This document shows positions 21,001-47,643 of a stretch of 64,000 nucleotides of DNA, piece by piece (positions within the stretch are counted from its first letter, which is position 1; every line of letters begins with the position of its first letter). Where the stretch lies: contig OZ024756.1 of the NCBI GenBank assembly GCA_964016885.1, positions 8,432,001-8,496,000 on the forward strand, read 5' to 3'. This DNA comes from Eledone cirrhosa. Its lineage: Eukaryota. Position numbers and translations under genes: made by a program. Under the pieces are notes generated by a model. It saw only the letters and a program-made list of their open reading frames with translations, had not been told where the DNA came from and did no database searches.

Positions 21001-24000
21001 TAACACCTCACCTGTCCTTACTAATGGTGCCATAATACCTCACCTGTCCTTACTAATGGTGCCATAATACCTCACCTGTCCTTACTAATTGTGCCATAAC
21101 ACCTGACCTGTCCTTACTAATGGTGCCATAACACCTCACCTGTCCTTACTAATGGTGCCATAATACCTCACCTGTCCTTACTAATGGTGCCATAATACCT
21201 CACCTGTCCTTACTAATTGTGCCATAACACCTCACCTGTCCTTACTGATGGTACCATAACACCTCACCTGTCCTTACTGATGGTGCCATAACACCTCACC
21301 TGTCCTTACTAATTGTGCCATAACACCTCACCTGTCCTTACTAATTGTGCCATAACACCTCACCTGTCCTTACTAATTGTGCCATAACACCTCACCTGTC
21401 CTTACTAATGGTGCCATAATACCTCACCTGTCCTTACTAATTGTGCCATAACACCTCACCTGTCCTTACTGATGGTACCATAACACCTCACCTGTCCTTA
21501 CTGATGGTGCCATAACACCTCACCTGTCCTTACTAATTGTGCCATAACACCTCACCTGTCCTTACTAATTGTGCCATAACACCTCACCTGTCCTTACTAA
21601 TTGTGCCATAACACCTCACCTGTCCTTACTAATTGTGCCATAACACCTCACCTGTCCTTACTAATGGTGCCATAATACCTCACCTGTCCTTACTAATTGT
21701 GCCATAACACCTCACCTGTCCTTACTGATGGTACCATAACACCTCACCTGTCCTTACTGATGGTGCCATAACACCTCACCTGTCCTTACTAATTGTGCCA
21801 TAACACCTCACCTGTCCTTACTAATTGTGCCATAACACCTCACCTGTCCTTACTAATTGTGCCATAACACCTCACCTGTCCTTACTAATTGTGCCATAAC
21901 ACCTCACCTGTCCTTACTAATGGTGCCATAATACCTCACCTGTCCTTACTAATTGTGCCATAACACCTCACCTGTCCTTACTGATGGTACCATAACACCT
22001 CACCTGTCCTTACTGATGGTGCCATAACACCTCACCTGTCCTTACTAATTGTGCCATAACACCTCACCTGTCCTTACTAATTGTGCCATAACACCTCACC
22101 TGTCCTTACTAATTGTGCCATAACACCTCACCTGTCCTTACTAATGGTGCCATAATACCTCACCTGTCCTTACTAATTGTGCCATAACACCTCACCTGTC
22201 CTTACTGATGGTACCATAACACCTCACCTGTCCTTACTGATGGTGCCATAACACCTCACCTGTCCTTACTAATTGTGCCATAACACCTCACCTGTCCTTA
22301 CTAATTGTGCCATAACACCTCACCTGTCCTTACTAATTGTGCCATAACACCTCACCTGTCCTTACTAATGGTGCCATAATACCTCACCTGTCCTTACTAA
22401 TTGTGCCATAACACCTCACCTGTCCTTACTGATGGTACCATAACACCTCACCTGTCCTTACTGATGGTGCCATAACACCTCACCTGTCCTTACTAATTGT
22501 GCCATAACACCTCACCTGTCCTTACTAATTGTGCCATAACACCTCACCTGTCCTTACTAATTGTGCCATAACACCTCACCTGTCCTTACTAATTGTGCCA
22601 TAACACCTCACCTGTCCTTACTAATGGTGCCATAATACCTCACCTGTCCTTACTAATTGTGCCATAACACCTCACCTGTCCTTACTGATGGTACCATAAC
22701 ACCTCACCTGTCCTTACTGATGGTGCCATAACACCTCACCTGTCCTTACTAATTGTGCCATAACACCTCACCTGTCCTTACTAATTGTGCCATAACACCT
22801 CACCTGTCCTTACTAATTGTGCCATAACACCTCACCTGTCCTTACTAATGGTGCCATAATACCTCACCTGTCCTTACTAATTGTGCCATAACACCTCACC
22901 TGTCCTTACTGATGGTACCATAACACCTCACCTGTCCTTACTGATGGTGCCATAACACCTCACCTGTCCTTACTAATGGTGCCATAATACCTCACCTGTC
23001 CTTACTAATTGTGCCATAACACCTCACCTGTCCTTACTAATGGTGCCATAATACCTCACCTGTCCTTACTAATGGTGCCATAATACCTCACCTGTCCTTA
23101 CTAATTGTGCCATAACACCTCACCTGTCCTTACTGATGATGCAATAACACCTCACCTGTCCTTACTGATGGTGCCATAACACCTCACCTATCCTTACTAA
23201 TGGTGCATTAACAACTCACCTGTCCTTAATAATGGTGCCATTACACCTCACCTGTCCTTACTGATGGTACCGTATCACCTCACCTGTCCCTACTAATGGT
23301 GCATTAACAACTCACCTGTCCTTACTAATGATGCAATAACACCTCACCTGTCCTTACTGATGGTGCCATAACACCTCACCTGTCCTTACTAATGGTGCAT
23401 TAACAACTCACCTGTCCTTACTGATTGCGCCATAACACCTCACCTTCCTTACTGGTGGTGCCATAACACCTCACCTGTCCTTACTGATGGTGCCATAACA
23501 CCTCACCTGTCCTTACTGATGGTACCATAACACCTCACCTGTCCTTACTAATGGTACCATAAAAGCTCACATGTCCTTACTAATGGTGCCATAACACCTC
23601 ACCTGTCCTTACTGATGGTCCCATAACACCTCACCTGTCCTTACTGATTGTGCCATAACACCTCACCTGTCCTTACTGATGGTGCCATAACAACTCACCT
23701 ATCCTTACTAATGGTGCCATAACACCTCACCTGTCCTTACTCTTGGGGCCATAACAACTCACCTGTCCTTACTGATGGTGCCATAACACCTCACCTGTCC
23801 TAACTGATAGTGCCATAACACCTCACCTGTCCTTACTGATGTTGCCATACCACCTCACCTGTCCTTACTGATGGTACCATAACACCTCACCTGTCCTTAC
23901 TATTGGTGCCATAACACCTCACCTGTCCTTTCTCTTGGGGCCATAACACCTCACCTGTCCTTACTGATGGTGCCATAACAGCTCACCTGTCCTTACTGAT

Positions 24001-27000
24001 GGTGCCGTAACACCTCAACTGTCCTTACTAATGGCGCCATAAAACCTCACCTGTCCTTACTAATGGCGCCATAACACCTCACCTGTCCTTACTGATGGTG
24101 CCATAACATCTCACCTGCTCTTAATAATGGCGCCATAAAACCTCACCTGTCCTTACTAATGGCGCCATAACACCTCACCTGTCCTTACTGATGGTGCCAT
24201 AACATCTCACCTGCTCTTAATAATGGTGCCATAACACCTCACCTGTCCTTACTATTGGTGCCATAATAACTCACCTGTCCTTACTGATGGTGCTATAACA
24301 CCTCACCTGTCCTTACTAATGGTGCCGTAATACCTCACCTGTCCTTACTGATGGTGCCATAACAACACACCTGTCCTTACTAATGGTGCCATAACACCTC
24401 ACCTGTCCTTACTAATGGTGCCATAACACCTCACCTGTCATTACTCATGGTACCATAACACCTCAACTGTCCTTACTAATGGTGCCATAAGACCTCACCT
24501 GTCCTTACTAATGGATCCATTACACCTCACCTGTCCTTACTGATGGTACCTTACCACCTCACCTGTCCCTACTAATGGTGCATTAACAACTCACCTGTCC
24601 TTTCTGATGATGCAATAATACCTCACCTGTCATTACTGATGGTGCCATAACACCTCACCTGTCCTTACTAATGCTGCATTAACAACTCACCTGTCCTTAC
24701 TGATGGTGCCATAAAAACTCACCTGTCCTTACTAATGGTACCATAATACGTCACCTGTCCTTACTGATGGTGCCATAACAACTCACCTGTCCTTACTGAT
24801 GGTGCCATAAAAACTCACCTGTCCTTACTAATGGTGCCATAATACTTCACCTGTCCTTACTGATGGTGCCATAACAACTCACCTGTCCTTACTAATGGTG
24901 CCATAACACCTCACCTGTCCTTACTATTGGTGCCATAACAACTCACCTGTCCTTACTGATGGTGCCATATCACCTCACCTGTCCTTACTGATGGTGCCAT
25001 AACACCTCACCTGTCCTTACTGATGGTGCCATAACACCTCACCTGTCCTTACTAATGGTGCCATAATACCTCACCTGTCCTTACTGATGGTACCATAACA
25101 CCTCACCTGTCCTTACTAATGGTGCCATAACACATCACCTGTGCTTACTAATGGTGCCATTACACCTCACCTGTCCTTACTGATGGTACCATACCACCTC
25201 ACCTGTCCCTACTAATGGTGCATTAACAACTCACCTGTCCTTACTTATGATGCAATAACACCTCACCTGTCCTTACTGATGGTGCCATAACACCTCACCT
25301 ATCCTTACTAATGGTGCATTAACAACTCACCTGTCCTTAATAATGGTGCCATTACACCTCACCTGTCCTTACTGATGTTACCATACCACCTCACCTGTCC
25401 CTACTAATGGTGCATTCACAACTCACCTGTCCTTACTGATGATGCAATAACACCTCACCTGTCCTTACTGATGGTACCATAACACCTCACCTGTCCTTAC
25501 TAATGGTGCCATAACACCTCACCTGTCCTTACTAATGGTGCCATTACACCTCACCTGTCCTTACTGATGGTACCGTACCACCTCACCTGTCCCTACTAAT
25601 GGTGCATTAACAACTCACCTGTCCTTACTAATGATGCAATAACACCTCACCTGTCCTTACTGATGGTGCCATAACACCGCACCTGTCCTTACTAATGGTG
25701 CATTAACAACTCACCTGTCCTTACTGATTGCGCCATAATTCTCACCTGTCCTTACTGGTGGTGCCATAACACCTCACCTGTCCTTACTGATGGTCCCATA
25801 ACACCTCACCTGTCCTTACTCTTGGGGCCATAACAACTCACCTGTCCTTACTGATGGTGCCATAACACCTCACCTGTCCTTACTGATGGTCCCATTACAC
25901 CTCACCTGTCCTTACTCTTGGGGCCATAACAACTCACCTGTCCTTACTGATGGTGCCATAACAACTCACCTATCCTTACTAATGGTGCCATAACACCTCA
26001 CCTGTCCTTACTCTTGGGGCCATAACAACTCACCTGTCCTTACTGATGGTGCCATAACACCTCACCTGTCCTAACTGATGGTGCCATAACACCTCACCTG
26101 TCCTTAATGGTGTTGCCATAACACCTCACCTGTCCTTACTGATGGTACCATAACACCTCACCTGTCCTTACTATTGGTGCCATAACACCTCACCTGTCCT
26201 TACTCTTGGGGCCATAACACCTCACCTGTCCTTACTGATGGTGCCGTAACCCCTCACCTGTCCTTACTAATGGTGCCATAAAACCTCACCTGTCCTTACT
26301 AATGGCGCCATCACACCTCACCTGTCCTTACTGATGGTGCCATAACATCTCACCTGCTCTTAATAATGGTGCCATAATACTTCACCTGTCCTTACTGATG
26401 GTGCCATAACACCTCACCTGTCCTTACTATTGGTGCCATAATAACTCACCTGTCCTTACTGATGGTGCTATAACACCTCACCTGTCCTTACTAATGGTGC
26501 CGTAATACCTCACCTGTCCTTACTGATGGTGCCATAACAACACACCTGTCCTTACTAATGGTGCCATAACACCTCACCTGTCCTCACTAATGGTGCCATA
26601 ACACCTCACCTGTCATTACTAATGGTACCATAACACCTCAACTGTCCTTACTAATGGTGCCATAACACCTCACCTGTCCTTACTAATGGTGCCTTAAAAC
26701 CTCACCTGTCCTTACTGATGGTACCTTACCACCTCACCTGTCCCTACTAATGGTGCATTAACAACTCACCTGTCCTTTCTGCTGATGCAATAACACCTCA
26801 CCTGTCATTACTGATGGTGCCATAACACCTCACCTGTCCTTACTAATGGTGAATTAACAACTCACCTGTCCTTACTGCTGGTGCCATAAAAACTCACCTG
26901 TCCTTACTAATGGTACCATAATACGTCACCTGTCCTTACTATTGGTGCCATAATACTTCACCTGTCCTTACTGATGGTGCCATAACAACTCACCTGTCCT

Positions 27001-30000
27001 TACTAATGGTGCCATAACACCTCACCTGTCCTTACTATTGGTGCCATAACAACTCACCTGTCCTTACTGATGGTGCCATATCACCTCACCTGTCCTTACT
27101 GATGGTGCCATAACACCTCACCTGTCCTTACTGATGGTGCCATAACACCTCACCTGTCCTTACTAATGGTGCCATAATACCTCACCTGTCCTTACTGATG
27201 GTGCCATAACAACTCACCTGTCGTTATTAATGGTGCCATAACACCTCACATGTCCTTACTATTAGTGCCATAACACCTCACCTGTCCTTACTGATGGTAC
27301 CATAACACGTCACCTGTGCTTACTATTGGTGCCATAACACCTCACCTGTCCTTACTATTGGTGCCATAACACCTCACCTGTCCTTACTGATCGTGCCATA
27401 ACACCTCACCTGTCCTTACTTATGGTACCATAACACCTCACCTGTCCTTACTGATGTTGCCTTAACACATCACCTGTCCTTACTGATGGTGCCATAACAG
27501 CTCACCTGTCCTTACTGATGGTAACATAACACCTCACATGTCCTTACTATTAGTGCCATAACACCTCACCTGTCCTTACTGATGGTACCATAACACGTCA
27601 CCTGTGCTTACTATTGGTGCCATAACACCTCACCTGTCCTTACTATTGGTGCCATAACACCTCACCTGTCCTTACTGATGGTACCATAACACCTCACAAG
27701 TCCTTACTGATGGTGCCATAACACCTCACCTGTCCTTACTGATGGTACCATAACACCTCACCTGTCCTTACTATTGTTGCCATAACACCTCACCTGTCCT
27801 TACTATTGGTGCCATAACACCTCACCTGTCCTTACTAATGGTGCCATAACACCTCACCTGTCCCTACTAATGGTGCCATAACACCTCACCTGTCCTTACT
27901 GATGGTACCATAACACCTCACCTGTCCTTACTAATGGTGCCATAACACCTCACCTGTCCTTACTGATGGTACCATAACACCTCACCTGTCCTTACTAATG
28001 GTGCCATAATACCTCACCTGTCCTTACTGATGGTGCCATAACACCTCACCTGTCCTTACTATTGGTGCCATAACACCTCAGCTGTCCTTACTGATGGTGC
28101 CATAACACCTCACCTGTCCTTACTGATGGTACCATAACACCTCACCTGTCCTTACTATTGGTGCCATAACACCTCACCTGTCCCTACTAATGGTGCCATA
28201 ACACCTCACCTGTCCTTACTGATGGTACCATAACACCTCACCTGTCCTTACTAATGGTGCCATAATACCTCACCTGTCCTTACTGATGGTGCCATAACAC
28301 CTCACCTGTCCTTACTATTGGTGCCATAACACCTCAGCTGTCCTTACTGATGGTGCCATAACACCTCACCTGTCCTTACTGATGGAACCATAACACCTCA
28401 CCTGTCCTTACTGATGGTACGATAACACCTCACCTGTCCTTACTATTGGTGCCATAACACCTCACCTGTCCTTACTGATGGTACCATAACACCTCACCTG
28501 TCCTTACTATTGTTGCCATAACACCTCACCTGTCCTTACTATTGGTGCCATAACACCTCAGCTGTCCTTACTGATGGTGCAATAACACCTCACCTGTCCT
28601 TATTGATGGTGCCATAACACCTCACCTGTCCTTACTAATGGTGCCATAACACCTCACCTGTCCTTACTGATGGTGCCATAGCACCTCACCTGTCCTTACT
28701 GATGGTACCATAACAACTCACCTGTCCTTAATAATGGTGCCATAATACCTCACCTGTCCTTACTGATGGTGCCATAGCACCTCACCTGTCCTTACTGATG
28801 GTGCCATAGCACCTCACCTGTCCTTACTGATGGTGCCATAACACCTCACCTGTCCTTACTATTGGTGCCATAACACCTCACCTGTCCTTACTAATGGTGC
28901 CATAACACCTCACCTGTCCTTACTGATGGTGCCATAACACCTCACATGTCCTTACTGATGTTGCCATAACACCTCACCTGTCCTTACTGATGGTACCATA
29001 ACACCTCACCTGTCCTTACTATTGGTGCCATAACACCTCACCTGTGCTTACTATTGGTGCCATAACACATCACCTGTCCTTACTGATGGTGCCATAACAC
29101 CTCAACTGTCCTTACTGATGGTGCCATAACAACTCCCCTGTCCTTACTGATGGTGCCATAACAACTCCCCTGTCCTTACTGATGGTGCCATAACAACTCC
29201 CCTGTCCTTACTGATGGTGCCATAACACCTCATCTGTCCTTACTATTGGTGCCATAACACCTCACCTGTGCTTACTATTGGTGCCATAACACATCACCTG
29301 TCCTTACTGATGGTGCCATAACACCTCACCTGTCCTTACTGATGGTGCCATAACAACTCCCCTGTCCTTACTGATGGTGCCATAACAACTCCCCTGTCCT
29401 TACTGATGGTACCATAACACCTCACCTGTCCTTACTATTGGTGCCATAACACATCACCTGTCCTTACTGATGGTGCCATAACACCTCACCTGTCCTTACT
29501 GATGGTGCCATAACAACTCCCCTGTCCTTACTGATGGTGCCATAACACCTCATCTGTCCTTACTAATGGTGCCATAATACCTCACCTGTCCTTACTGATG
29601 GTGCCATAACACCTCACCTGTCCTTACTCATGGTGCCATAATACCTCACCTGTCCTTACTGATGGTGCCATAACACCTCACCTGTCCTTACTAATGGTGC
29701 CATAACACCTCACCTGTCCTTACTATTGGTGCCATAACACCTCACCTGTCCTTACTGATGGTGCCATAACACCTCACCTGTCCTTACTAATGGTGCCATA
29801 ATACCTCACCTGTCCTTACTGATGGAACCATAACACCTCACCTGTCCTTACTAATGGTGCCATAATACCTCACCTGTCCTTACTGATGGTGCCATAACAC
29901 CTCACCTGTCCTTACTAATGGTGCCATAATACCTCACCTGTCCTTACTGATGGTGCCATAACACCTCACCTGTCCTTACTAATGGTGCCATAATACCTCA

Positions 30001-31185
30001 CCTGTCCTTACTGATGGTGCCATAACACCTCACCTGTCCTTACTGATGGTACCATAACACCTCACCTGTCCTTACTAATGGTGCCATAATACCTCACCTG
30101 TCCTTACTGATGGTGCCATAACACCTCACCTGTCCTTACTATTGGTGCCATAACACCTCAACTGTCCTTACTGATGGTGCCATAACACCTCACCTGTCCT
30201 TACTAATGGTGCCATAATACCTCACCTGTCCTTACTGAAGGTGCCATAACAACTCAACTGTCCTTACTAATGGTGCCATAACAACTCACCTGTCATTACT
30301 ATTGGTGCCATAACACCTCACCTGTCCTTACTGATGGTACCATAACACCTCACCTGTCCTTACTAATGGTGCCATAACACCTCACCTGTCCTTACTGATG
30401 GTACCATAACACCTCACCTGTCCTTACTAATGGTGCCATAACACCTCACCTGTCCTTACTATTGGTGCCATAACAACTCACCTGTCCTTACCGATGGTGC
30501 CATAACACCTCACCTGTCCTTACTGATGGTGCCATAACACCTCACCTGTCCTTACTGATGGTGCCATAATACCTCACCTGTCCTTACTGATGGTGCCATA
30601 ACAACTCACCTGTCCTTACTGATGGTGCCATAACACCTCACCTGTCCTTACTATTGGTGCCATAACAACTCACCTGTCCTTACCGATGGTGCCATAACAC
30701 CTCACCTGTCCTTACTAATGGTGCCATAACACCTCACCTGTCCTTACTATTGGTGCCATAACACCTCACCTGTCCTTAGTGATGGGACCATAACACCTCA
30801 CCTGTCCTTACTGATGGTGCCATAACACCTCACCTGTCCTTACTGATGGTGCCATAATACCTCACCTGTCCTTACTGATGGTGCCATAACAACTCACCTG
30901 TCCTTACTGATGGTGCATAACACCTCACCTGTCTTTACTAATGATGCCATAACAACAGACCTGTCCTAACTATTGATGCCATAACAACACACCTGTCCTT
31001 ACTGATGGTGCCATAACACCTCACCTGTCCTTACTGATGATGCCATGACACCTCACCCGTCCTTACAAATGGTGCCATAACACCTCACCTGTCCTTACTG
31101 ATGATGCCATGACACCTCACCCGTCCTTACAAATGGTGCCATAACACCTCACCAGTCTTTTCTGATGGTGCGATAACACCTCACC
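1..31185. repeat. 32-bp tandem satellite, consensus TAACACCTCACCTGTCCTTACTRATGGTRCCA, about 975 copies, continues off the left edge
   Basis: TAACACCT recurs at 11, 43, 75 etc. (period 32). Head-to-tail monomers with point variants and rare 1-bp indels; no ORF in the track. Confidence 0.98.
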
Positions 31186-34100
31186 TTACAGTTTGGACTG
31201 GGGCTTTTTGTTGTAACACCTACATGACCACTTTACTGTGTGGACTGGTGACTTTTTGTTGTGACACCTACATGACCACTTTACAGTGTGGATTGTGGAA
31301 TCTTGTTGTGACACCTACATGACCAACTTACGGCGTGATCTGGATGAGTTTTGTTGAGACACCTACATTACCACTTTACAGTGTGGAATGGGTACTTTTT
31401 GTTCTGACACCTACATGACCACTTAACAGCATGGTCTGGGGCTTTTTGTTGGGACACCTACATGACCACTTTACAGCGTTGACTGCGGCTTTTTATCGTG
31501 ACACCTATATGACCGCTTTACAGTGTGGACTGGTTGCTTTTTGTTGTGACACCTACATGACCACTTTACAGTGTGGACTGGGTGCTTTTTTGTCGTGACA
31601 CCTACATGACCACTTTACAGTGTGGACTGAGTGCTTTTTGTTGTGACACCTACATGACCACTTTACAGCGTGGACTAGGGATTTTTGTTGTGACACCTAC
31701 ATGACCACTTTACAGTGTGGACTGGGTGCTTTTTGTTGTGACACCTACATGATCATTTTACAGTGTGGACTGGGTGCTTTTTGTTGTGACACCTACATGA
31801 CCACTTTACAGCGTTGACTGGGGCTTTTTATTGTGACACCTATATGACCACTTTACAGTGTGGACTGTGTACTTTTTGTTGTGACACCTACATCACCTCT
31901 TTAAAGTGTGGACTCAGTGCTTTTTGTTGTGACACCTACATGACCACTTTACATCGTGGTCTGGGGCTTTTTGTTGGGAAACCTACATGACTACTTTCCT
32001 GTGTGGACTGGGGCTTTTTGTTGTGACACCTATGTGACCTCTTTAAAGTGTGGACTGGGTACTTTTAGTTGTGACACTTACATGACCACTTTACTTTGTG
32101 GACTGTGTACTTTTTCTTGTGACACATACATGACCACTTTACAGCGTGGACTGGGGCATTTTTTGTGATACCTACATGACCACTTCACAGTGTGGACTGG
32201 GTGATTTTTGTTGTGTCACCTACACAACCACTTTACAATGTGGACTGGGTACTTTTTGTTGTGACACCTACATGCCCACTTTACAGTGTGGACCTGGTTC
32301 TTATTGTTGTAATACCTACATGACCACTTCATAGTGTGGACTGAGTGCTTTTTTTTGTGACACCTACATGTCCACTTTACAGTGTGGACTAGGTACTTTT
32401 TGTTGTGACACCTACATGACCACTTTACAGAATGGACTGAGTGCTTTTTGTTGTGACACCTACATGACCACTTTACAGCGTGGACTGAGTGCTTTTTGTT
32501 GTGACACCTACATGACCACTTTATAGTATTGACTGGGTACTTTTAGTTGTGACACCTAAATGACCACTTTACAGCGTGGACTGGGGCTTTTTGTTGTGAC
32601 AGCTACATGACCACTTTACAGTGTGGTCTGGGTACTTATTGTTGTGATACCTACATGACCACTTTATAGTGAGGGCTGGGTACTTTTTGTTGTGACACCT
32701 ACATGACGACTTCATGGTGTGGACTGTTTACTTTTTCTTGTGACACCTACATGACCACTTTACAGTGTGGACTGACTACTTTTTGTTGTGACACCTACAT
32801 GACCACTTTACAGCATGGACTGAGTGCTTTTTGTTGTCACACCTACATGACCACTTTACAGTGAGGGCTGGGTACTTTTAGTTGTGACACCTAAATGACC
32901 ACTTTACAGTGTGGACTGAGTGTTTTTTGTTGTGACACCTACATGATCACTTTACAGTGTGGACTGAATGCTTTTTGTTGTGACACCTACATGCCCACTT
33001 TACAGTGTGGACTGGGTGCTTTTTGTTTTGACACCTACATGACCACTTTACAGCGTGGACTGGGGCTTTTTGTTGTGATACCTACATGACCACTTTACAG
33101 TGTGGACTAAGTGCTTTTTGTTGTGACACCTACACGATCATTTTACAGTGTGGACTGGTGTCTTCTTGTTGTCACCTATATGACCACTTTACAGTGTGGA
33201 CTGAGTGATTTTTGTTGTGACACCTACATGACCACTTTACAGCATGGACTGGGGCTTTTTGTTTTGACACCTACATGACCACTTTACAGCGTGGACTGAG
33301 GGATTTTTGTTGTGACACCTACATGACCACTTTACAGTGTGGACTGAGTGCTCTTTTTGTGACACCTACATGAACACTTTACACCGTGGATTGGGTGCCT
33401 TTGTTGTGACACCTACATGACCACTTTACAGCGTGGACCGTGTGCTCTTTTTTGTGAAACCTACATAACCAATTTACACCGTGGACTGAGTGCTTTTTGT
33501 TGGGACACCTCCATGACCACTTTACTGTGTGCACTGTGTACTTTTTCTTGTGACACCTACATGACCACTTTACAGTGTGGGCTGGGTACTTTTTGATGTG
33601 ACACCTACATGACGACTTCATAGTCTGGACTGGGTACTTTTTCTTGTGACAGCTACATGACCACTTTAGAGCGTGGACTGGGTACTTTTTGATGTGACAC
33701 CTACATGACGACTTCATATTCTGGACTGGGTACTTTTTCTTGTGACAGCTACATGACCACTTTACAGTGTGGACTGGGGCTTTTTCTTGTGTCACCTACA
33801 TGACCACTTTAGAGCGTGGACTGGGTACTTTTTGATGTGACACCTACATGACGACTTCATAGTGTGGACTGGGTACTTTTTCTTGTGACACCTACTGAAC
33901 CACTTTACAGCGTGGACTGGGGCTTTTTCTTGTGTCACCTACATGACCACTTTAGAGCGTGGACTGGGTACTTTTTGATGTGACACGGACATGACGACTT
34001 CATAGTGTGGACTGGGTACTTTTTCTTGTGACACCTACATGACCACTTTACAGCGTGGACTGGGGCTTTTTCTTGTGTCACCTACATGACCACTTTACAG

Positions 34101-37100
34101 CGTGGACTGGGTACTTTTTGATGTGACACCTACATGACGACTTCATAGTGTGGACTAGGTACTTTTTCTTGTGACACCTACATGAGCACTTTATAGTGTG
34201 GGCTGGGTACATTTCGTTGTGACACCTACATGACCACTTTACAGTGTGGACTGAGTGCTTTTTTTTTGTGACACCTATATGACCTCTTTACAGTGTGAAC
34301 TGAGTACTTTTAGTTGTGACACCTGCATGACCACTTTACAATGTGGGCTGGGTAGTTTTTGTTCTGACACCTACATGACCACTGTACAGCATGGTCTGGG
34401 GTTTTTTGTTGGGACACCTACATGACCACTTTACAGTGAGGACTGGGGCTTTTTGTTGTGACACATACATGACCTCTTTACAGTGTGGACTGGGTACTTT
34501 TAGTTGTGACCCCTACATGACCACTTTACAGCGTGGACTGGGGCTTTTCCTTGTGACACCTACATGACCACTTTATAGTGTGGACTGGGTACTTTTTGAT
34601 GTGACACCTACATGACGACTTCATAGTGTGGACTGGGTACTTTTTCTTGTGACACCTACATGACCTGTTTACAGCGTGGACTGGAACTTTTTGTTTTGAC
34701 ACCTACATGACCACTTTGCAGTGTGGACCTGGTACTTATTGTTGTGATACCTACATGACCAATTTACAGTGTGGACTGAGTGATTTTTTTTGTGACACCT
34801 ACATGACCACATTACAGTGTGGACTGGGTGCTTTTTGTTGTGACACCTACATGACCACTTTACAGTGTGCACTGAGTGCTTTTTTGTCGTGACACCTACA
34901 TGACCACTTTACAGTGTCGGCAGAGTGCTTTTTGTTGTGACACCTACATGACCACTTTACAGCATGGTCTGGGATTTTTGTTGGGACACCTACATGACCA
35001 CTTTACAGTGAGGAATGGGGCTTTTTGTTGCGACACCTACATGACCTCTTTACAGTGTGGACTGGGGCTTTTTGTTGTGATACCTACATGACCACTTTAT
35101 AGTGTGAACTGGGTACTTTTTCTTGTGACACCTACATGACGACTTCATAGTGTGGACTGGGTACTTTTTCTTGTGACACCGACATGACCACTTTACAGTG
35201 TGGACTGAGTACTTTTTGTTGTGACATCTACATGACCACTTTACCCATGGACTGGGGCTTTTTGTTGTGACACCTATATGACCACTTTACAGTGTAGACT
35301 GGGTGCTTTTTGTTGTGGCACCTCCATGACCACTTTACAGTGTAGACTGGGTGCTTTTTTTGTAACACCTGCATGACCACTTTACAGTGTGGAGTGGGTG
35401 CTTTTTGTTGTGTCGCCGACACGACCACTTTACAGTGTGGACTCTGGGCTTTTTGTTGTGTCACCTACATGACCACTTTACATGGTGGATTGGAGGCTTT
35501 CTATTGTGGCGCCTACACGACCACTTTACAGTGTGGACTGTGGGCTTTTTGTTGTGTCACCTACATGACCTCTTTACAGTGTGGACTGGGTACTTTTAGT
35601 TTTGACACCTACATGACCACTTTACAGTGTGGACTGGGTACTTTTTGTTCTGACACCTACATGACCACTTTACAGCATGGTCTGGGGCTTTTTGTTGGGA
35701 CACCTACATGACCACTTTACATTGAGGTATGGGGCTTTTTGTTGCGACACCTACATGACCTCTTTACAGTGTGGATTGGGTACTTTTAGTTGTGACACCT
35801 ACATGACCACTTTATAGTGTGGACTGGGTACTTTTTGATGTGACACCTACATGACGACTTCATAGTGTGGACTGGGTACTTTTTTTTGTGCCACCTACAT
35901 GACCACTTTACAGTGTGGACTGAGTACTTTTTCTTGTGACACCTAACTGACCACTTTACAGTGTGGACTGGGTACTTTTTGTTGTGACACCTACATGACC
36001 ACTTTATAGCATGGACTGGGGCTTTTTGTTGTGGCACCTACATGACTACTTTACAGCGTAGACTGGGGCTTTTTGTTGTGACACCTACACGACCACCTTA
36101 CAATGTGGACTGAGTGCTTTTTGTCGTCACACCTACATGACCACTTTACAATGTGGACGGAGTGCTTTTTTTTGTGACACCTACATGACCACTTTACAGC
36201 ATGGACTGAGTGCTTTTTGTTGTGTCACCTACATGACCACTTTACAGCATGTACTTTGTGCTTTTTGTTGCGACACCCACATGACCATTTTACATGGTGG
36301 ACTAGGGCTTTTTGTTGTGATACCTACATGACCACTTTATAGTGTGGACTCGGTACTTTTTCTTGTGATACCTACATGACCACTTTACTTTGTGGACTGT
36401 GTACTTTTTGTTGTGACACCTACATGACCACTTTACAGTGAGGACTGGGGCTTTTTGTTGTGACACATACATGACCTCTTTACAGTGTGGACTGGGTACT
36501 TTTAGTTGTGACCCCTACATGACCACTTTACAGCGTGGACTGGGGCTTTTCCTTGTGACACCTACATGACCACTTTATAGTGTGGACTGGGTAATTTTTG
36601 ATGTGACACCTACATGACGACTTCATAGTGTGGACTGGGTACTTTTTCTTGTGACACCTACATGACCTGTTTACAGCGTGGACTGGAACTTTTTGTTTTG
36701 ACACCTACATGACCACTTTGCAGTGTAGACCTGGTACTTATTGTTGTGATACCTACATGACCAATTTACAGTGTGGACTGAGTGCTTTTTTTTGTGACAC
36801 CTACATGACCACATTACAGTGTGGACTGGGTGCTTTTTGTTGTGACACCTACATGACCACTTTACAGTGTGGACTGAGTGCTTTTTTGTCGTGACACCTA
36901 CATGACCACTTTACAGTGTCGGCAGAGTGCTTTTTGTTGTGACACCTACATGACCACTTTACAGCATGGTCTGGGACTTTTTGTTGGGACACCTACATGA
37001 CCACTTTACAGTGAGGAATGGGGCTTTTTGTTGCGACACCTACATGACCTCTTTACAGTGTGGACTGGGGCTTTTTGTTGTGATACCTACATGACCACTT

Positions 37101-40100
37101 TATAGTGTGGACTGGGTACTTTTTCTTGTGACACCTACATGACGACTTCATAGTGTGGACTGGGTACTTTTTCTTGTGACACCGACATGACCACTTTACA
37201 GTGTGGACTGAGTACTTTTTGTTGCGACATCTACATGACCACTTTACCCATGGACTGGGGCTTTTTGTTGTGACACCTATATGACCACTTTACAGTGTAG
37301 ACTGGGTGCTTTTTGTTGTGGCACCTCCATGACCACTTTACAGTGTAGACTGGGTGCTTTTTTTGTAACACCTGCATGACCACTTTACAGTGTGGAGTGG
37401 GTGCTTTTTGTTGTGTCGCCGACACAACCACTTTACAGTGTGGACTGTGGGCTGTTTGTTGTGTCACCTACACGACCACTTTACAGTGTGGACTCTGGGC
37501 TTTTTGTTGTGTCACCTACATGACCACTTTACATGGTGGATTGGAGGCTTTCTATTGTGGCGCCTACACGACCACTTTATAGTGTGGACTCGGTACTTTT
37601 TCTTGTGATACCTACATGACCACTTTACAGCGTGGACTGTGTACTTTTTGTTGTGACACCTACATGACCACTTTACAGTGAGGACTGGGGCTTTTTGTTG
37701 TGACACATACATGACCTCTTTACAGTGTGGACTGGGTACTTTTAGTTGTGACCCCTACATGACCACTTTACAGCGTGGACTGGGGCTTTTCCTTGTGACA
37801 CCTACATGACCACTTTATAGTGTGGACTGGGTACTTTTTGATGTGACACCTACATGACGACTTCATAGTGTGGACTGGGTACTTTTTCTTGTGACACCTA
37901 CATGACCTGTTTACAGCGTGGACTGGAACTTTTTGTTTTGACACCTACATGACCACTTTGCAGTGTAGACCTGGTACTTATTGTTGTGATACCTACATGA
38001 CCAATTTACAGTGTGGACTGAGTGCTTTTTTTTGTGACACCTACATGACCACATTACAGTGTGGACTGAGTGCTTTTTGTTGTGACACCTACATGACCAC
38101 TTTACAGTGTGGACTGACTGCTTTTTTGTCGTGACACCTACATGACCACTTTACAGTGTCGGCAGAGTGCTTTTTGTTGTGACACCTACATGACCACTTT
38201 ACAGCATGGTCTGGGACTTTTTGTTGGGACACCTACATGACCACTTTACAGTGAGGAATGGGGCTTTTTGTTGCGACACCTACATGACCTCTTTACAGTG
38301 TGGACTGGGGCTTTTTGTTGTGATACCTACATGACCACTTTATAGTGTGGACTGGGTACTTTTTCTTGTGACACCTACATGACGACTTCATAGTGTGGAC
38401 TGGGTACTTTTTCTTGTGACACCGACATGACCACTTTACAGTGTGGACTGAGTACTTTTTGTTGCGACATCTACATGACCACTTTACCCATGGACTGGGG
38501 CTTTTTGTTGTGACACCTATATGACCACTTTACAGTGTAGACTGGGTGCTTTTTGTTGTGGCACCTCCATGACCACTTTACAGTGTAGACTGGGTGCTTT
38601 TTTCTTAACACCTGCATGACCACTTTACAGTGTGGAGTGGGTGCTTTTTGTTGTGTCGCCGACACAACCACTTTACAGTGTGGACTGTGGGCTGTTTGTT
38701 GTGTCACCTACACGACCACTTTACAGTGTGGACTCTGGGCTTTTTGTTGTGTCACCTACATGACCACTTTACATGGTGGATTGGAGGCTTTCTATTGTGG
38801 CGCCTACACGACCACTTTACAGTGTGGACTGTGGGCTTTTTGTTGTGTCACCTACATGACCTCTTTACAGTGTGGACTGGGTACTTTTAGTTTTGACACC
38901 TACATGACCACTTTACAGTGTGGACTGGGTACTTTTTGTTCTGACACCTACATGACCACTTTACAGCATGGTCTGGGGCTTTTTGTTGGGACACCTACAT
39001 GACCACTTTACATTGAGGTATGGGGCTTTTTGTTGCGACACCTACATGACCTCTTTACAGTGTGGATTGGGTACTTTTAGTTGTGACACCTACATGACCA
39101 CTTTATAGTGTGGACTGGGTACTTTTTGATGTGACACCTACATGACGACTTCATAGTGTGGACTGGGTACCTTTTCTTGTGCCACCTACATGACCACTTT
39201 ACAGTGTGGACTGAGTACTTTTTCTTGTGACACCTACCTGACCACTTTACAGTGTGGACTGGGTACTTTTTGTTGTGACACCTACATGACCATTTTACAG
39301 TGTGGACTGGGGCTTTTTGTTGTGATACCTACATGACCACTTTACAGTGTCGGCAGAGTGCTTTTTGTTGTGACACCTACATGACCACTTTACAGCCTGG
39401 ACTGGGGCTTTTTGTTCTGACACCTACATGACCCCTTTACAGCATGGTCTGGGGCTTTTTGTGGGGACACCTACATGACCACTTTACAGTGAGGAATGGG
39501 GCTTTTTGTTGCGACACCTACATGACCTCTTTACAGTGTGGACTGGGTACTTTTAGTTGTGACACCTACATGACCATTTTATAGTGTGGACTGGGTACTT
39601 TTTGATGTGACACCTACATGACCACTTTACAGTGTGGACTGGATACTTTTTGTTGTGACACCTACATGACCACTTTATAGCATGGACTGGGGCTTTTTGT
39701 TGTGGCACCTACATGACCACTTTACAGCGTGGACTGGGGCTTTTTGTTGTGACACCTACACAACCACTTTACAATGTAGACTGAGTGCTTTTTGTCGTGA
39801 CACCTACATGACCACTTTACAGTGTCGACTGAGTGCTTTTTGTTGTGACACCTACATGACCTGTTTACAGCGTGGACTGGGACTTTTTGTTGTGACACCT
39901 ACATGACCACTTTGCAGTGTGGACCTGGTACTTATTGTTGTGATACCTACATATACCAATTTACAGTGTGGACTGAGTGCTTTTTGTCGTGACACCTACA
40001 TGACCACTTTACAGTGTTGACTGGGTACTTTTTGTTCTGACACCTACATGACCACTTTACAGCACGGTCTGGGGCTTTTTGTTGGGACAGCTACATGACC

Positions 40101-43100
40101 ACTTTACAGTGTGGACTGGGGCATTTTGTTGTGACACCTACATGACCTCTTTACAGTGTGGACTGGGTACTTTTAGTTGTGACCCCTACATGACCACTTT
40201 ATAGTGTGGACTGGGTACTTTTTGATGTGACACCTACATGACGAATTCATAGTGTGGACTGGGTACTTTTTCTTGTGACACCTACATGACCACTTTACAG
40301 TGTGGACTGGGTACTTTTTGTTGTGACACCTACATGACCACTTTATAGCATGGACTGGGGCTTTTTGTTGTGGCACCTACATGACCACTTTACAGCGTGG
40401 ACTGGGGCTTTTTGTTGTGACACCTACACGATCACTTTACAATGTGGACTGAGTGCTTTTTTTTGTGACACCTACATGACCACTTTACAGCATGGACTGA
40501 GTGCTTTTTGTGGTGTCACCTACATGACCACTTTACAGCTTGGACTGGGTGCTTTTTTTTGCGACACCTACATGACCATTTTACAGCGTGGACTAGGGTT
40601 TTTGTTGTGATACCTACATGACCACTTTATAGTGTGGACTCGGTACTTTTTCTTGTGACACCTACATGACCACTTTACTTTGTGGACTGTGTACTTTTTG
40701 TTGTGACACCTACATGACCATTTTACAGTGTGGACTGGGGCTTTTTGTTATGATACCTACATGACCATTTTATAGTGTGAACTGGGTACTTTTTCTTGTG
40801 ACACCTTCATGACGACTTCATAGTGTGGACTGGGTACTTTTTCTTGTGACACCTACATGACCACTTTACAGTGTGGACTGAGTACTTTTTGTTGCAACAT
40901 CTACATGACCACTTTACCCCATGGACTGGGGCTTTTTGTTGTGACACCTATATGACCACTTTACAGTGTAGACTGGGTGCTTTTTTTGTGACACCTGCAT
41001 GACCACTTTACAGTGTTGAGTGGGTGCTTTTTGTTGTGTTACCCACATGACCACTCTACAGTGTGGACTGGGTGCTTTTTGTTGTGTCACCTAGATGACC
41101 ACTTTACATGGTGGACTGGAGGCTTTTTATTGTGTCGCCGACACGACCACTTTACAGTGTGGACTGTGGGCTGTTTGTTGTGTCACCTACATGACCACTT
41201 TACAGTGTAGTCTGTGGGCTTTTTGTTGTGTCACCGACACGACCACTTTACATGGTGGACTCGAGGCTTTTTGTTGTGTCGCCTACATGACCACTCTACA
41301 GTGTGGATTTGGTGCTTTTTGTTGTGACACCTACATGACCACTTTACAGCGTGGACTGTGGCTTTTTGTCATGACACCTACATGACCACTTTACAGTGTG
41401 GACTGGGGCTTTTGGTTGTGACACCTACATGACCACTTTACAGTGTAACTGAGTGCTTTTTGTCGTGACACCTACATGACCACTTTACAATGTGGACTGA
41501 GTGCTTTTTTTTGTAACACCTACATGACCACTTTACAGCATGGACTGGGTGCTTTTTGTTGCGACACCTACATGACCATTTTACAGCGTGGACTAGGGTT
41601 TTTGTTGTGACACCTACATGACCACTTTATAGTGTGGACTCGGTACTTTTTCTTGTGACACCTACATGACCACTTTACTTTGTGGACTGTGTACTTTTTC
41701 TTGTGACACCTATATGACCACTTTACAGTGTGGACTGGGGCTTTTTGTTGTGATACCTACATGACCACTTTACCCCATGGACTGGGGCTTTTTGTTGTGA
41801 ACCTATATGACCACTTTACAGTGTAGACTGGGTGCTTTTTGTTGTGGCACCTCCATGACCACTTTACAGTGTAGACTGGGTGCTTTTTTTTGTGACACCT
41901 GCATGACCACTTTACAGTGTGGAGTGGGTGCTTTTTGTTGTGTTACCTACATGACCACTCTACAGTCTGGACTGGGTGCTTTTTGTTGTGTCACCTACAC
42001 GACCACTTTACAGTGTGGACTCTGGGCTTTTTGTTGTGTCACCTACATGACCACTTTACATGGTGGACTGGAGGCTTTTTATTGTGTTGCCTACACGACC
42101 ACTTTACAGTGTGGACTGTGGGCTGTTTGTTGTGTCACCTACATGACCACTCTACAGTATGGAGTGGGTGCTTTTTGTTGTGTCACCTACACGACCACTT
42201 TACAGTGTGGACTTTGGGCTTTTTGTTGTGTCACCTACATGACCACTTTACATGGTGGACTGGAGGCTTTTTATTGTGTTGCCTACACGACCATTTTACA
42301 GTGTGGACTGTGGGCTGTTTGTTGTGTCACCTACACGATGACTTTACAGTGTGGACTCTGGGTTTTTGTTGTGTCACCTACATGACCACTTAACATGGTG
42401 GACTGGAGGCTTTTTGGTGTGTCGCCTACACGACCACTTTACAGTGTGGACTGTGGGCTTCATGTTGTGTCACCCACATGACCACTTTACATGGTGGATT
42501 GGAGGCTTTTTATTGTGTCGCCTACACGACCACTTTACAGTGTACTCTGTGGGCTTTTTGTTGTGTCACCTACATGACCACTTTACATGGTGGACTGGAG
42601 GCTTTTTATTGTGTCGCCGACACGACCACTTTACAGTGTGGACTGTGGGCTGTTTGTTGTGTCACCTACATGACCACTTTACAGTGTAGTCTGTGGGCTT
42701 TTTGTTGTGTCACCTACATGACCACTTTACATGGTGGACTGGAGGCTTTTTGTTGTGTCGCCTACATGACCTCTCTACAGTGTGGATTGGGTGCTTTTTG
42801 TTGTGACACCTACATGACCACTTTACAGCGTGGACTGTGGCTTTTTGTCGTGGCACCTACATGACCACTTTACAGTGTGGACTGGGGCTTTTGGTTGTGA
42901 CACCTACATGACCACTTTACAGTGTAGACTGAGTGCTTTTTGTCGTGACACCTACATGACCACTTTACAGCGTGGACTGGGTGCTTTTTGTTGCAACACC
43001 TACATGACCATTTTACAGCGTGGACTAGGGTTTTTGTTGTGATACCTACATGACCACTTTATAGTGTGGACTCGGTACTTTTTCTTGTGACACCTACATG

Positions 43101-46100
43101 ACCACTTTACTTTGTGGACTGTGTACTTTTTGTTGTGACACCTACATGACCACTTTACAGCATGGACTGAGTGCTTTTTGTTGTGTCACCTACATGACCA
43201 CTTTACAGCATGGACTGGGTGCTTTTTGTTGCGACACGTACATGACCATTTTACAGCGTGGACTAGGGCTTTTTGTTGTGATACCTACATGACCACTTTA
43301 TAGTGTGGACTCGGTACTTTTTCTTGTGACACCTACATGACCACTTTACTTTGTGGACTTATTACTTTTTGTTGTGACACCTACATGACCATTTTACAGT
43401 GTGGACTGGGGCTTTTTGTTATGATACCTACATGACCACTTTATAGTGTGGACTGGGTACTTTTTCTTGTGACACCTTCATGACGACTTCATAGTGTGGA
43501 CTGGGTACTTTTTCTTGTGACACCTACATGACCACTTTACAGTGTGGACTGAGTACTTTTTGTTGCGACATCTACATGACCACTTTACCCCATGGACTGG
43601 GGCTTTTTGTTTTGACACCTATATGACCACTTTACAGTGTAGACTGGGTGCTTTTTGTTGTGGCACCTCCATGATCACTTTACAGTGTAGACTGGGTGCT
43701 TTTTTTGTGTTACCTACATGACCACTCTACAGTGTGGACTGGGTGCTTTTTGTTGTGTCACCTACATGACCACTTTACATGGTGGACTGGAGGCTTTTTA
43801 TTGTGTCGCCGACACGACCACTTTACAGTGTGGACTGTGGGCTGTTTGTTGTGTCACCTACATGACCACTTTACAGTGTAGTCTGTGGGCTTTTTGTCGT
43901 GTCACCTACATGACCACTTTACATGGTGGACTGGAGGCTTTTTGTTGTGTCGCCTACATGACCACTCTACAGTGTGGATTTGGTGCTTTTTGTTGTGACA
44001 CCCACATGACCACTTTACAGCGTGGACTGTGGCTTTTTGTCGTGACACCTACATGACCATTTTACAGCGTGGACTAGGGCTTTTTGTTGTGACACCTACA
44101 TGACCTCTTTACAGTGTGGCCTGGTTACTTTTAGTTGTGACAACTACATGACCACTTTACAGCGTGGACTGGGTGCTTTTTGTTGCGACACCCACATGAC
44201 CATTTTACAGCGTGGACTAGGGCTTTTTGTTGTGACACCTACATGACCTCTTTACAGTGTGGCCTGGTTACTTTTAGTTGTGACAACTACATGACCACTT
44301 TACTGTGTGGACTCGGTACTTTTTGTTGTGACACCTACATGACCATTTTACAGTGTGGACTGGGTACTTTTAGTTGTGACACCTACATGACCACTTTACA
44401 GTGTGGACTGAGTACTTTTTGTTGCGACACCTACATGACCACTTTACCCCATGGACTGGAGCTTTTTGTTGTGACACCTATATGACCACTTTACAGTGTA
44501 GACTGGGTGCTTTTTGTTGTGGCACCTCCATGACCACTTTACAGTGTAGACTGGGTGCTTTTTTTGTGACACCTGCATGACCACTTTACAGTGTGGAGTG
44601 GGTGCTTTTTGTTGTGTTACCTACACGACCACTTTACAGTGTGGACTGGGTGCTTTTTGTTGTGTCACCTACATGACCACTTTACATGGTGGACTGGACG
44701 CTTTTTATTGTGTCGCCGACACGACCACTTTACAGTGTGGACTGTGGGCTGTTTGTTGTGTCACCTACATGACCACTTTACAGTGTAGTCTGTGGGCTTT
44801 TTGTTGTGTCACCTACATGACCACTTTACATGGTGGACTCGAGGCTTTTTGTTGTGTCGCCTACATGACCACTCTACAGTGTGGACTGAGTGCTTTTTGT
44901 TGTGACACCTACATGACCACTTTACAGCGTGGACTGTGGCTTTTTGTCGTGACACCTACATGACCACTTTACAGTGTGGACTGGGGCTTTTGGTTGTGAC
45001 ACCTACATGACCATTTTACAGTGGAGACTGAATGCTTTTTGTTGTGACACCTACATGACCACTTTACAATGTGGACTGAGTGCTTTTTGTTGCGACACCT
45101 ACATGACCACTTTACCCCATGGACTGGAGCTTTTTGTTGTGACACCTATATGACCATTTTACAGTGTAGACTGGGTGCTTTTTGTTGTGGCACCTCCATG
45201 ACCACTTTACAGTGTAGACTGGGTGCTTTTTTTGTGACACCTGCATGACCACTTTACAGTGTGGAGTGGGTGCTTTTTGTTGTGTTACCTACACGACCAC
45301 TTTACAGTGTGGACTGGGTGCTTTTTGTTGTGTCACCTACATGACCACTTTACATGGTGGACTGGACGCTTTTTATTGTGTCGCCGACACGACCACTTTA
45401 CAGTGTGGACTGTGGGCTGTTTGTTGTGTCACCTACATGACCACTTTACAGTGTAGTCTGTGGGCTTTTTGTTGTGTCACCTACATGACCACTTTACATG
45501 GTGGACTCGAGGCTTTTTGTTGTGTCGCCTACATGACCACTCTACAGTGTGGACTGAGTGCTTTTTGTTGTGACACCTACATGACCACTTTACAGCGTGG
45601 ACTGTGGCTTTTTGTCGTGACACCTACATGACCACTTTACAGTGTGGACTGGGGCTTTTGGTTGTGACACCTACATGACCATTTTACAGTGTAGACTGAA
45701 TGCTTTTTGTTGTGACACCTACATGACCACTTTACAATGTGGACTGAGTGCTTTTTTTTGTAACACCCACATGACCACTTTACAGCGTGGACTGGGTGCT
45801 TTTTGTTGCGACACCCACATGACCATTTTACAGCGTGGACTGGGTACTTTTAGTTGTGACAACTACATGACTACTTTACTGTATGGACTCGGTACTTTTT
45901 GTTGTGACACCTACATGACCATTTTACAGCGTGGACTAGGGTTTTTGTTGTGATACCTACATGACTACTTTATAGTGTGGACTCGGTACTTTTTCTTGTG
46001 ACACCTACATGACCACTTTACTTTGTGGACTGTGTACTTTATGTTGTGACATCTACATGACCACGTTACAGTGTGGACTGGGGCTTTTTGTTGTGACACC

Positions 46101-47091
46101 TACATGACCACTTTATAGTGTGGACTGGGTACTTTTTCTTGTGACACCTACATGACCACTTTACAGTGTAGACTGAGTACTTTTTGTTGTGACACCTACA
46201 TGACCACTTTACCCCATGGACTGGGGCTTTTTGTTGTGAACCTATATGACCACTTTACAGTGTAGACTGGGTGCTTTTTGTTGTGGCACCTCCATGACCA
46301 CTTTACAGTGTAGACTGGGTGCTTTTTTTTGTGACACCTTCATGACCACTTTACAGTGTGGAGTGGGTGCTTTTTGTTGTGTTACCTACATGACCACTCT
46401 ACAGTATGGACTGGGTGCTTTTTGTTGTGTCACCTACACGACCACTTTACAGTGTGGACTCTGGGCTTTTTGTTGTGTCACCTACATGACCACTTTACAT
46501 GGTGGACTGGAGGCTTTTTATTGTGTTGCCTACACGACCACTTTACAGTGTGGACTGTGGGCTGTTTGTTGTGTCACCTACATGACCACTCTACAGTATG
46601 GAGTGGGTGCTTTTTGTTGTGTCACCTACACGACCACTTTACAGTGTGGACTGTGGGCTGTTTGTTGTGTCACCTACATGACCACTTTACATGGTGGATT
46701 GGAGGCTTTTTATTGTGTCGCCTACACGACCACTTTACAGTGTGGACTGTGGGCTTTTTGTTGTGTCACCTACATGACCACTTTACAGTGTACTCTGTGG
46801 GCTTTTTGTTGTGTCACCTACATGACCACTTTACATGGTGGACTGGAGGCTTTTTGTTGTGTCGCCTACATGACCACTCTACAGTGTGGATTGTGTGCTT
46901 TTTGTTGTGACACCTACATGACCACTTTACAGCGTGGACTGTGGCTTTTTGTCGTGACACCTACATGACCACTTTACAGTGTAGTCTGTGGGATTTTTGT
47001 TGTGTCACCTACATGACCACTTTACATGGTGGACTGGAGGCTTTTTGTTGTGTCGCCTACACGACCACTTTACAGTGTAAACTGGGTGCTT
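31186..47091. repeat. 47/48-bp tandem satellite, consensus GTGACACCTACATGACCACTTTACAGTGTGGACTGGGTRCTTTTTGTT, about 330 copies
   Basis: Direct reading of monomers. 47-bp variants have GGGGCTTTTT in place of GGGTGCTTTTT. The 16-aa periodicity of the ORF-track peptides (MTTLQCGLGAFCCDTY) reflects the 48-bp unit. Confidence 0.98.
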
Positions 47092-47360
47092 CACTGGATG
47101 TATACTTCGTTTTCCCATTGTGGGAGATGTATGGGAGCGTGGGTGGAGTGGTACATACTGTATATATGCTTCAGCTTTGGTCTGTACCTATGGAAAGTTG
47201 GTTATTGCATAACTCCAGAGATCTCGGTCCTCTGTCATTACTTTTGCGAGGTGCATTTGGGCAAGGTCAGCTTTTATCAACTCATCCCAAGTCTTTCTGG
47301 GTCTCTACACTCCAAGCTCCCCTCGCCCATGAGTGCTCTGCACCTTTTTATGCAGCTATC
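47092..47360 (-). mobile_element. RTE-clade LINE remnant: ORF C-terminus plus start of 3' UTR
   Basis: Minus-strand translation across one frameshift gives DSCIKRCRALMGEG.../RPRKTWDELIKADLAQMHLAKVMTEDRDLWSYAIT. This aligns with DRWVKKCQEIPVEG...GRPRKTWREVVRADL...DRDKWRDAV at 63692-63988. Confidence 0.8.
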
Positions 47361-47406
47361 ATATAGATATATAGATATATATAAATACATATATATATAT
47401 ATATAA

Positions 47407-47588: not shown

Positions 47589-47602
47589 TATATATATATA
47601 TA

Positions 47603-47643
47603 CCGTGGAAGATGGACGTTAAACGAAGATGATGATGATGATG
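47603..47643 (+). mobile_element. Extreme 3' tail of an RTE-family LINE/SINE
   Basis: GGAAGATGGACGTTAAACGAAGATGATGATG resembles the tail GGAAAAGCGGATGTAAAATGACGATGATGATG of the RTE at 63672-63710 (minus strand). Confidence 0.65.

What the first reader, a model, noticed from the sequence alone, without database searches (positions are those of the whole stretch)
46900..47360. 48-bp satellite may have expanded in place from an RTE LINE 3' UTR
Seen: on the minus strand an RTE ORF C-terminus (47360-47200) is followed ~110 bp later directly by the array, read as GGTGTCACAACAAAAAGCACCCAGTCCACACTGTAAAGTGGTC. From memory (not verified here), an abundant Octopus RTE/SINE 3' region reads roughly GGTGCCACGTAAAAAGCACCCAGTACACTCTGTAAAGTGGTTGG, in the same orientation relative to the element. 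Inference: a short 3' UTR motif was amplified about 330-fold at this locus, with the parent element still attached.
Basis: partly seen in the sequence, partly recalled or inferred. Interest (0 to 1): 0.7.

Follow-up and report, generated by a model that had tools for sequence, protein, structure and literature searches.

The report
Satellite grown from a LINE end
A 16,000-base block of 48-base repeats starts right at the end of a small, broken jumping-gene (LINE) copy, other copies of that element show the same junction, and the block likely grew on the spot from a short repeat the element carried, a known route to satellite DNA that shows no sign of a function here.

Summary
Confirmed: a 48-bp array (31182-47091, about 333 units) begins 96 bp after the stop of a 170-bp, frameshifted RTE-like LINE ORF end on the minus strand. 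The junction is a family trait. Contigs of other copies, about 83-84% identical, from two organisms cross from the linker into the first unit, and further joints link the same two places. Inside the array, 219 of 332 units lie in duplicated blocks, the largest 26 units at 0.7% difference, and homogenisation is regional, which fits growth in place. Corrections: the seed was probably already a short tandem; the repeat is abundant beyond this locus and in another organism; most other copies read through this copy's stop, so the UTR boundary is not fixed; only a scrap of the parent remains. No LINE tail follows: the array runs straight into an unrelated 32-bp satellite (974 units, open at the window edge). 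No genome was held, so 'few units, then tail' could not be tested here; earlier unchecked notes report it. Closest known: Ogre 3'-UTR satellites, cetacean L1 satellite, squamate SINE satellites. New member of a known kind.

The parts
47188..47360 (-). RTE-like LINE ORF C-terminal fragment, one frameshift near 47305-47316, stop at 47190-47188 in this copy
   Evidence: other copies carry an extra base at 47313-47316 and mostly read TGG at the stop
47092..47187 (-). 96-bp linker between ORF end and array, likely 3' UTR of the element family
   Evidence: crossed by diverged contigs of other copies in runs X1 and X6 (table 8 records 5, 21, 22)
47058..47091 (-). first, partial 48-bp unit (about 34 of 48 positions)
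   Evidence: same partial start in other copies, with 0-1 gaps in two bridging pieces
31182..47091 (-). 48-bp satellite array, about 333 units, 16.5% mean pairwise difference, built by block duplications
1..31185 (-). 32-bp satellite array, 974 units, 93% to the commonest unit, runs off the window; abuts the 48-bp array where the LINE tail would be
   Evidence: seen only in run X1 of 4 laid
47361..47405 (.). (TA)n tract bounding the 5' side of the LINE fragment

Best explanation
The 48-bp array is joined to the 3' end of a small, broken RTE-like LINE copy by a junction that other copies share, and it likely grew in place from a short tandem repeat that this element family carries downstream of its reading frame. 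Steps: (1) a 5'-truncated copy with its 3' repeat inserted beside a (TA)n tract (inferred); (2) the repeat lengthened by slippage or unequal exchange while its units drifted apart to about 16% (inferred; the units are about as far from each other as the fragment is from other copies); (3) blocks of 5-26 units were then duplicated locally, some very recently (shown), adding roughly 40-50% of the present units; (4) the element's tail was lost or pushed away when an unrelated 32-bp satellite came to abut the far end (absence in the window shown, cause inferred). The array is most likely passive, non-coding DNA.
For:: of 24 listed pieces (26,063 more not shown), 2 cross the linker/array junction with 31 or more letters on both sides and differ from this locus (X1 record 5, 20 differences in 129; X6 record 21, another organism, 21 in 121). 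A third (X6 record 22) has 29 letters on the array side. 5 of 15 listed joints (219 more not shown) link 47154-47157 to a unit at one phase: 22 contigs in X1, 14 in X6, and reads in X16 from 1-2 start places each. In X16, 2,932 reads continue upstream of 47091 with another unit-like stretch, so units occur in tandem elsewhere; 219 of 332 units lie in duplicated blocks of 5 or more (longest run after shuffling unit order: 3, in 50 shuffles); longest block 26 units at 0.74% difference; longest exact match 534 bp; near-identical pairs cross the boundary near 33600 only 13 times against 133 expected (lowest ratio in 200 shuffles 0.63); removing later copies leaves 170-209 of 332 units. Earlier unchecked notes report the same link at other loci; they are leads, not support.
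Against: No listed non-identical piece spans the whole way from the RPRKTW motif to the array, and depth dips at 47190-47237 (about 2,800-4,600 in X1, against 24,000 on the linker side and up to 250,000 further into the ORF), so the unit-bearing module may belong to one subfamily or a partner element. Most joints have under 30 letters on the short side. The unit is far more abundant than the linker in the same organism and in organism C, so a satellite pool exists that could have fed or seeded this array. The other RTE copy in the window (63670-64000) ends in (GAT)n right after its ORF with no 48-bp unit. No tail or target-site duplication closes this copy. Units next to the LINE are no more diverged than the rest (0.88-0.91 in all bins), so there is no gradient marking an origin.
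Confidence: 0.68

Rival explanations
1. The LINE copy supplied only a landing pad: its short repeat recombined with an existing 48-bp array elsewhere, and gene conversion or break repair copied in a long stretch of ready-made, already diverged units, which then duplicated locally.
For: The unit is abundant genome-wide. 170-209 distinct units remain after collapsing recent blocks, with no divergence gradient. The tail is missing. An earlier unchecked note (e1-10309904) proposes copy-to-copy spread for another repeat in this genome.
Against: Regional homogenisation and large near-identical blocks at fixed spacings show growth on the spot. The partial first unit matches other copies of the element.
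Confidence: 0.17
2. The direction is reversed: the 48-bp satellite is older, an RTE subfamily captured a few of its units into its 3' end and spread them, and arrays such as this one are secondary outgrowths or remnants.
For: The unit is present in all 4 runs, covering three organism labels, and at high depth in two. PMC7004042 names this as the alternative scenario for Ogre satellites.
Against: The fixed linker and partial first unit are shared by organisms A and C, so any capture predates their split; growth at this locus would still be in place.
Confidence: 0.1
3. Chance adjacency or an assembly join between an unrelated satellite and a LINE scrap.
For: The flank is dense with mobile elements. 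No listed piece identical to this locus crosses 47091, and none crosses the 48/32 junction.
Against: Diverged copies in two organisms show the same junction; chance adjacency is about 0.01-0.02.
Confidence: 0.05

Closest known systems
Satellites from 3'-UTR tandem repeats of Ogre LTR retrotransposons (Lathyrus FabTR families, PMC7004042, passages and Discussion read; pea PisTR-A as cited in PMC9659126, passages and section 2.2 read)
   Same: A short tandem repeat at a fixed place and orientation downstream of the coding region; some copies expand into long arrays.
   Different: The parent here is a non-LTR RTE-like LINE of an animal. The range of array sizes and the outgroup test done for Ogre could not be done here.
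Cetacean common satellite from the L1 3' end; chicken HinfI from CR1; Drosophila 18HT from HeT-A/TART (as listed in PMC9659126; originals not read)
   Same: Satellite derived from the 3' part of a non-LTR element.
   Different: In these the unit is a piece of the element; here the unit is short (48 bp), appears tandem already in other copies, and the parent junction survives at the array edge.
SINE-derived satellites (sSats) of squamates (PMC10702118, abstract and Discussion read)
   Same: Arrays of up to about 1000 units with the parent element's sequence kept at one end only.
   Different: Parent is a SINE there; here an ORF fragment of a LINE leads into the array.
RTE elements as sources of microsatellites in Lepidoptera (PMC2887409, abstract read) and RTE-2_OV of Octopus vulgaris with a microsatellite-rich 3' UTR (PMC9115989, passages read)
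   Same: RTE 3' ends generate tandem repeats.
   Different: Those are simple sequence repeats of a few bases, not a 48-bp unit reaching 16 kb.

Membership tests
RTE-clade LINE | ORF with APE endonuclease and reverse transcriptase, placed in the RTE clade by an RT tree | not testable with these tools
   Only about 56 codons survive. The window's other copy (63695-64000) matches proteins bearing PF00078 and PF03372 (P0003, P0004). The clade name RTE is recalled from the C-terminal motif and from earlier notes; no tree was built.
RTE-clade LINE | C-terminal ORF segment with the GRP(R/K)KTW-type motif | tested here: met
   HMM hit E 8.6e-6; 50% identity over 34 aa to P0001
RTE-clade LINE | 3' end in a microsatellite tail such as (GAT)n, with target-site duplication | tested here: inconclusive
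   Absent between 47091 and base 1; the 32-bp array runs off the window and no genome was held
Retroelement 3'-UTR-derived satellite (Ogre model) | Unit at a fixed position and orientation downstream of the coding region in other copies of the element | tested here: met
   2 of 24 listed pieces bridge by the 31-letter rule and 5 of 15 listed joints agree; no single non-identical piece reaches from the ORF motif to the unit
Retroelement 3'-UTR-derived satellite (Ogre model) | Unit lies in untranslated sequence | tested here: inconclusive
   This copy's stop at 47190-47188 reads TGG in most other copies (X1 depth 8036 of 10867; X16 773 of 885 reads), so the family's ORF end is not located
Retroelement 3'-UTR-derived satellite (Ogre model) | Continuum from short arrays in dispersed copies to long arrays | not testable with these tools
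   No genome; reported only in unchecked notes e1-8829850 and e1-10308023
Retroelement 3'-UTR-derived satellite (Ogre model) | Related species carry the element with short arrays but lack the satellite | tested here: inconclusive
   Organism C has both the junction and high depth on the unit
Ogre/Tat LTR retrotransposon satellites (membership proper) | Parent is a Ty3/gypsy Ogre element | tested here: not met
   Parent fragment is LINE-type; it works like these but is not a member
Satellite array grown in place | Local block duplication and regional homogenisation | tested here: met

The most novel reading that the evidence does not exclude
An octopod RTE family carries a 48-bp tandem in its 3' end, shared across species, that plants a satellite seed at every insertion; arrays then grow independently at many sites. 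This locus would add a later stage: a younger, lineage-restricted 32-bp satellite has taken over the far end and removed the element's tail, so one 47-kb stretch records seeding, growth and succession of satellites. Thousands of identical seeds in different chromosomal settings would make 'where does a short repeat become a satellite' directly testable.
Probability: 0.4. Interest if true: 0.55.

Novelty: new member of a known kind. Interest (0 to 1): 0.3.

Why it matters
Satellites born from retroelement 3' ends are known, best in legumes. An animal LINE that seeds 48-bp arrays with the junction preserved adds a clean example, and I found no description of it for octopods in 7 literature searches (open-access library only). 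As a system it could test which chromosomal settings let a seed expand. This locus is a weaker exhibit than others already noted in the same genome, where both element ends are reported to survive, and nothing suggests a function.

Tried and rejected
No whole genome is held, so dispersed copies could be seen only through laid contigs and reads. A unit-derived pattern found 0 matches in metagenome, genome and viral contig collections. None of 54 metagenome loci with RTE-like C-termini held the unit or linker (best hits 12-16 bp, E about 0.5). Protein searches with the fragment read through its stop into the array, and with an open array frame, found no relative: 0 candidates, 0 of 841, and 3 hits that are repeat-rich surface proteins with bacterial-type anchors, judged spurious. 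Open frames up to 242 aa in the array follow from a 48-bp unit being 16 codons; I rejected a coding role. The idea that the 32-bp unit derives from the 48-bp unit was rejected: local and circular alignments score as shuffles do (p 0.31-0.57 same strand; 0.035-0.16 reverse strand, one of four tests under 0.05). The idea of microhomology at the 48/32 junction is not established: the overlap is 1 base in register, or about 4-6 bases if a 5-base deletion is allowed. My early guess that the linker's last 30 bases are a decayed RTE terminus was dropped because other copies differ at those bases and still continue into the unit. The unit folds no better than shuffles (z -0.4 to -1.2). No Rfam family in 46500-64000. 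No RNA holder listed. Motif searches of papers and supplements found no octopus record; for PMC9115989 files 1-4 and 8 of 8 were searched, files 5-7 and two oversized files were not, and they could hold relevant transcripts. The PMC13282606 supplement was listed but not read.

Full report
Observation. The left 47 kb of the window is two tandem arrays: a 32-bp array at 2-31186 (974.7 copies, running off the window) and a 48-bp array at 31182-47091 (333.4 copies). I cut the 48-bp array into 334 units, mean identity 0.90 to their consensus, flat along the array (0.88-0.91 per bin of 20); the unit nearest the LINE is partial, about 34 of 48 positions. On the minus strand 47360-47191 translates across one frameshift as a LINE ORF C-terminus ending in a stop at 47190-47188. 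An HMM from 21 of 54 metagenome homologues hits it at E 8.6e-6 and hits the window's second copy at 63982-63749 at E 3.4e-27. That second copy matches proteins with reverse transcriptase and endonuclease domains and, at 71% over 58% of the query, a piece inside an Octopus bimaculoides gene model, which is my only tool-based hint of the organism group. The clade name RTE is recalled from the motif; no tree was built. A (TA)n tract (47361-47405) closes the fragment on its 5' side, and I saw no further piece of this copy to the right.

Is the junction a family trait? No genome was held, so I laid public runs on 46950-47400 at 80% likeness (4 of 18 runs listed). Of 24 listed pieces (26,063 not shown), two cross from linker into the first unit with 31 or more letters each side and differ from this locus: X1 record 5 (47059-47187, 20 differences, no gap) and X6 record 21 (organism C, 47060-47180, 21 differences, 1 gap). 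X6 record 22 has 29 letters on the array side. Five of 15 listed joints (219 not shown) link 47154-47157 to a unit at one phase, in 22 contigs of X1, 14 of X6 and reads of X16 from 1-2 start places each; most have under 30 letters on the short side. So other copies run from the same linker into the unit, in the same orientation, in two organisms. Limits: no listed non-identical piece reaches from the RPRKTW motif to the unit; depth dips at 47190-47237 and again at 47110-47141, which may reflect this copy's decay or a subfamily-specific end; and the tool warns that contig depth is no copy number. This copy's stop reads TGG in most other copies (X1 depth 8036 of 10867; X16 773 of 885 reads), so the family's ORF end, and with it the UTR boundary, is not located. 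In X16, 2,932 reads continue upstream of 47091 with a further unit-like stretch, and about 2,660 reads leave near 47040 through a variant unit, but only 30 letters are shown and these RAD reads may come from few loci, so the tail was not seen.

How the array grew. Mean pairwise difference between units is 16.5%, yet the nearest neighbour differs by 1.9%. 219 of 332 full units lie in duplicated blocks of five or more; the longest are 26 units at 0.74% difference (a direct 1,240-bp tandem duplication), 21 units at 0.9-1.2%, and 14 units at 0.6%; shuffling unit order gives runs of at most 3. The block next to the LINE (units 3-8) recurs five more times within 47057-40800. Near-identical pairs cross the boundary near 33600 only 13 times against 133 expected, so the last 50 units took little part in recent duplication. 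Collapsing later copies leaves 170-209 units. Recent growth in place is therefore shown and accounts for about 40-50% of the units. The origin of the older 170-209 units, by slow local expansion or by import from other arrays, is inferred. Their spread (16.5%) is like the fragment's distance from other copies (15-17% in listed pieces, biased by the 80% floor), which fits growth that began soon after insertion but does not prove it.

The far end. The 48-bp array stops sharply at about 31186 and the 32-bp array starts with no spacer and no LINE tail. Laid on 31110-31270, the 48-bp unit is covered in all 4 runs and deeply in X1 and X6, while the 32-bp unit is covered only in X1 (X17, same species label, is reduced-representation, so its blank says little). 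None of 24 listed pieces (10,057 not shown) bridges this junction. The two units are no more alike than shuffles, and neither occurs inside the other array or in 47401-64000. The 32-bp array is more uniform (93%) and likely younger and lineage-restricted. Whether the element's tail lies beyond it is open.

Counter-example in the window. The RTE-like copy at 63670-64000 ends in (GAT)n directly after its ORF and has no 48-bp unit, so the repeat belongs to some families only.

Comparison. PMC7004042 (passages and Discussion) shows nine of eleven Lathyrus satellites arising from short tandem repeats in the Ogre 3' UTR and names capture of satellite units by the element as the alternative. PMC9659126 (passages and section 2.2) lists PisTR-A, the cetacean L1-derived satellite, HinfI and 18HT. 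PMC10702118 (abstract and Discussion) describes SINE-derived arrays that keep the parent at one end. PMC2887409 (abstract) and PMC9115989 (passages) tie RTE 3' ends to microsatellites. PMC13282606 (first of three parts and passages) annotates Octopus vulgaris repeats; its main text has no mention of satellites beyond microsatellites and TRF. Seven searches found no description of this repeat in the open-access library; unread supplements may bear on this. Earlier notes of this scan report the same 48-bp link at six or more other places in this genome, one with both element ends kept and two or three units in ordinary copies. I could confirm only the junction and the tandem nature of the seed, not those counts.

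Verdict. It works like the Ogre 3'-UTR satellites but with a LINE parent: a new member of a known kind. Best reading 0.68; import of ready-made units 0.17; capture of an older satellite by the element 0.10; chance 0.05. Interest 0.3, because the process is known, no function is indicated, and better-preserved examples are already noted in this genome. The abutting 32-bp satellite and the missing tail are the part particular to this locus and remain unexplained.

Noticed in passing
window 1-31185: 32-bp satellite, 974 units, 93% uniform, open at the left edge, seen only in one of four runs; origin unknown and unrelated to the 48-bp unit by shuffle tests.
   Followed up: partly
window 63670-64000 (-): Second RTE-like copy with an intact C-terminal frame, (GAT)n tail right after the stop, beside a (TA)n tract; no 48-bp unit.
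   Followed up: partly
window 47604-47640 (+): About 40-bp scrap resembling the same RTE-like 3' terminus with a (GAT)n tail, between TA tracts.
   Followed up: no
window 47406-47510: Near-perfect palindromic element flanked by TA tracts, MITE-like (read).
   Followed up: no
window 47946-48583 and 56911-57733: Fold-back elements with 262-nt (99%) and 294-nt (97%) inverted arms, with partial further copies nearby.
   Followed up: no
window 51258-55230 (+): 5' part of a two-ORF LINE with an Exo_endo_phos domain (E 1.1e-14), frameshifted and cut off within the RT region; L1/Tx1-like by recall.
   Followed up: partly
window 49440-50140 and 50350-51020 (-): Two LINE 3' fragments with (TAA)n tails and a restriction-like endonuclease look (R4/Dong-like by recall; no Pfam hit for the one scanned).
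   Followed up: partly
window 50180-50370 and 62430-62610: Two opposed copies of a short element with an (ATT)n tail, 94-96% alike; tRNA-SINE-like by recall.
   Followed up: no
window 56355-56798 (-) and 58100-58600: Decayed frames resembling GIY-YIG endonuclease of Penelope-like elements (recall; no Pfam hit for the one scanned).
   Followed up: partly
P0002: An Octopus bimaculoides helicase gene model contains about 60 residues of RTE-like C-terminus, probably a repeat taken into the model as an exon.
   Followed up: no
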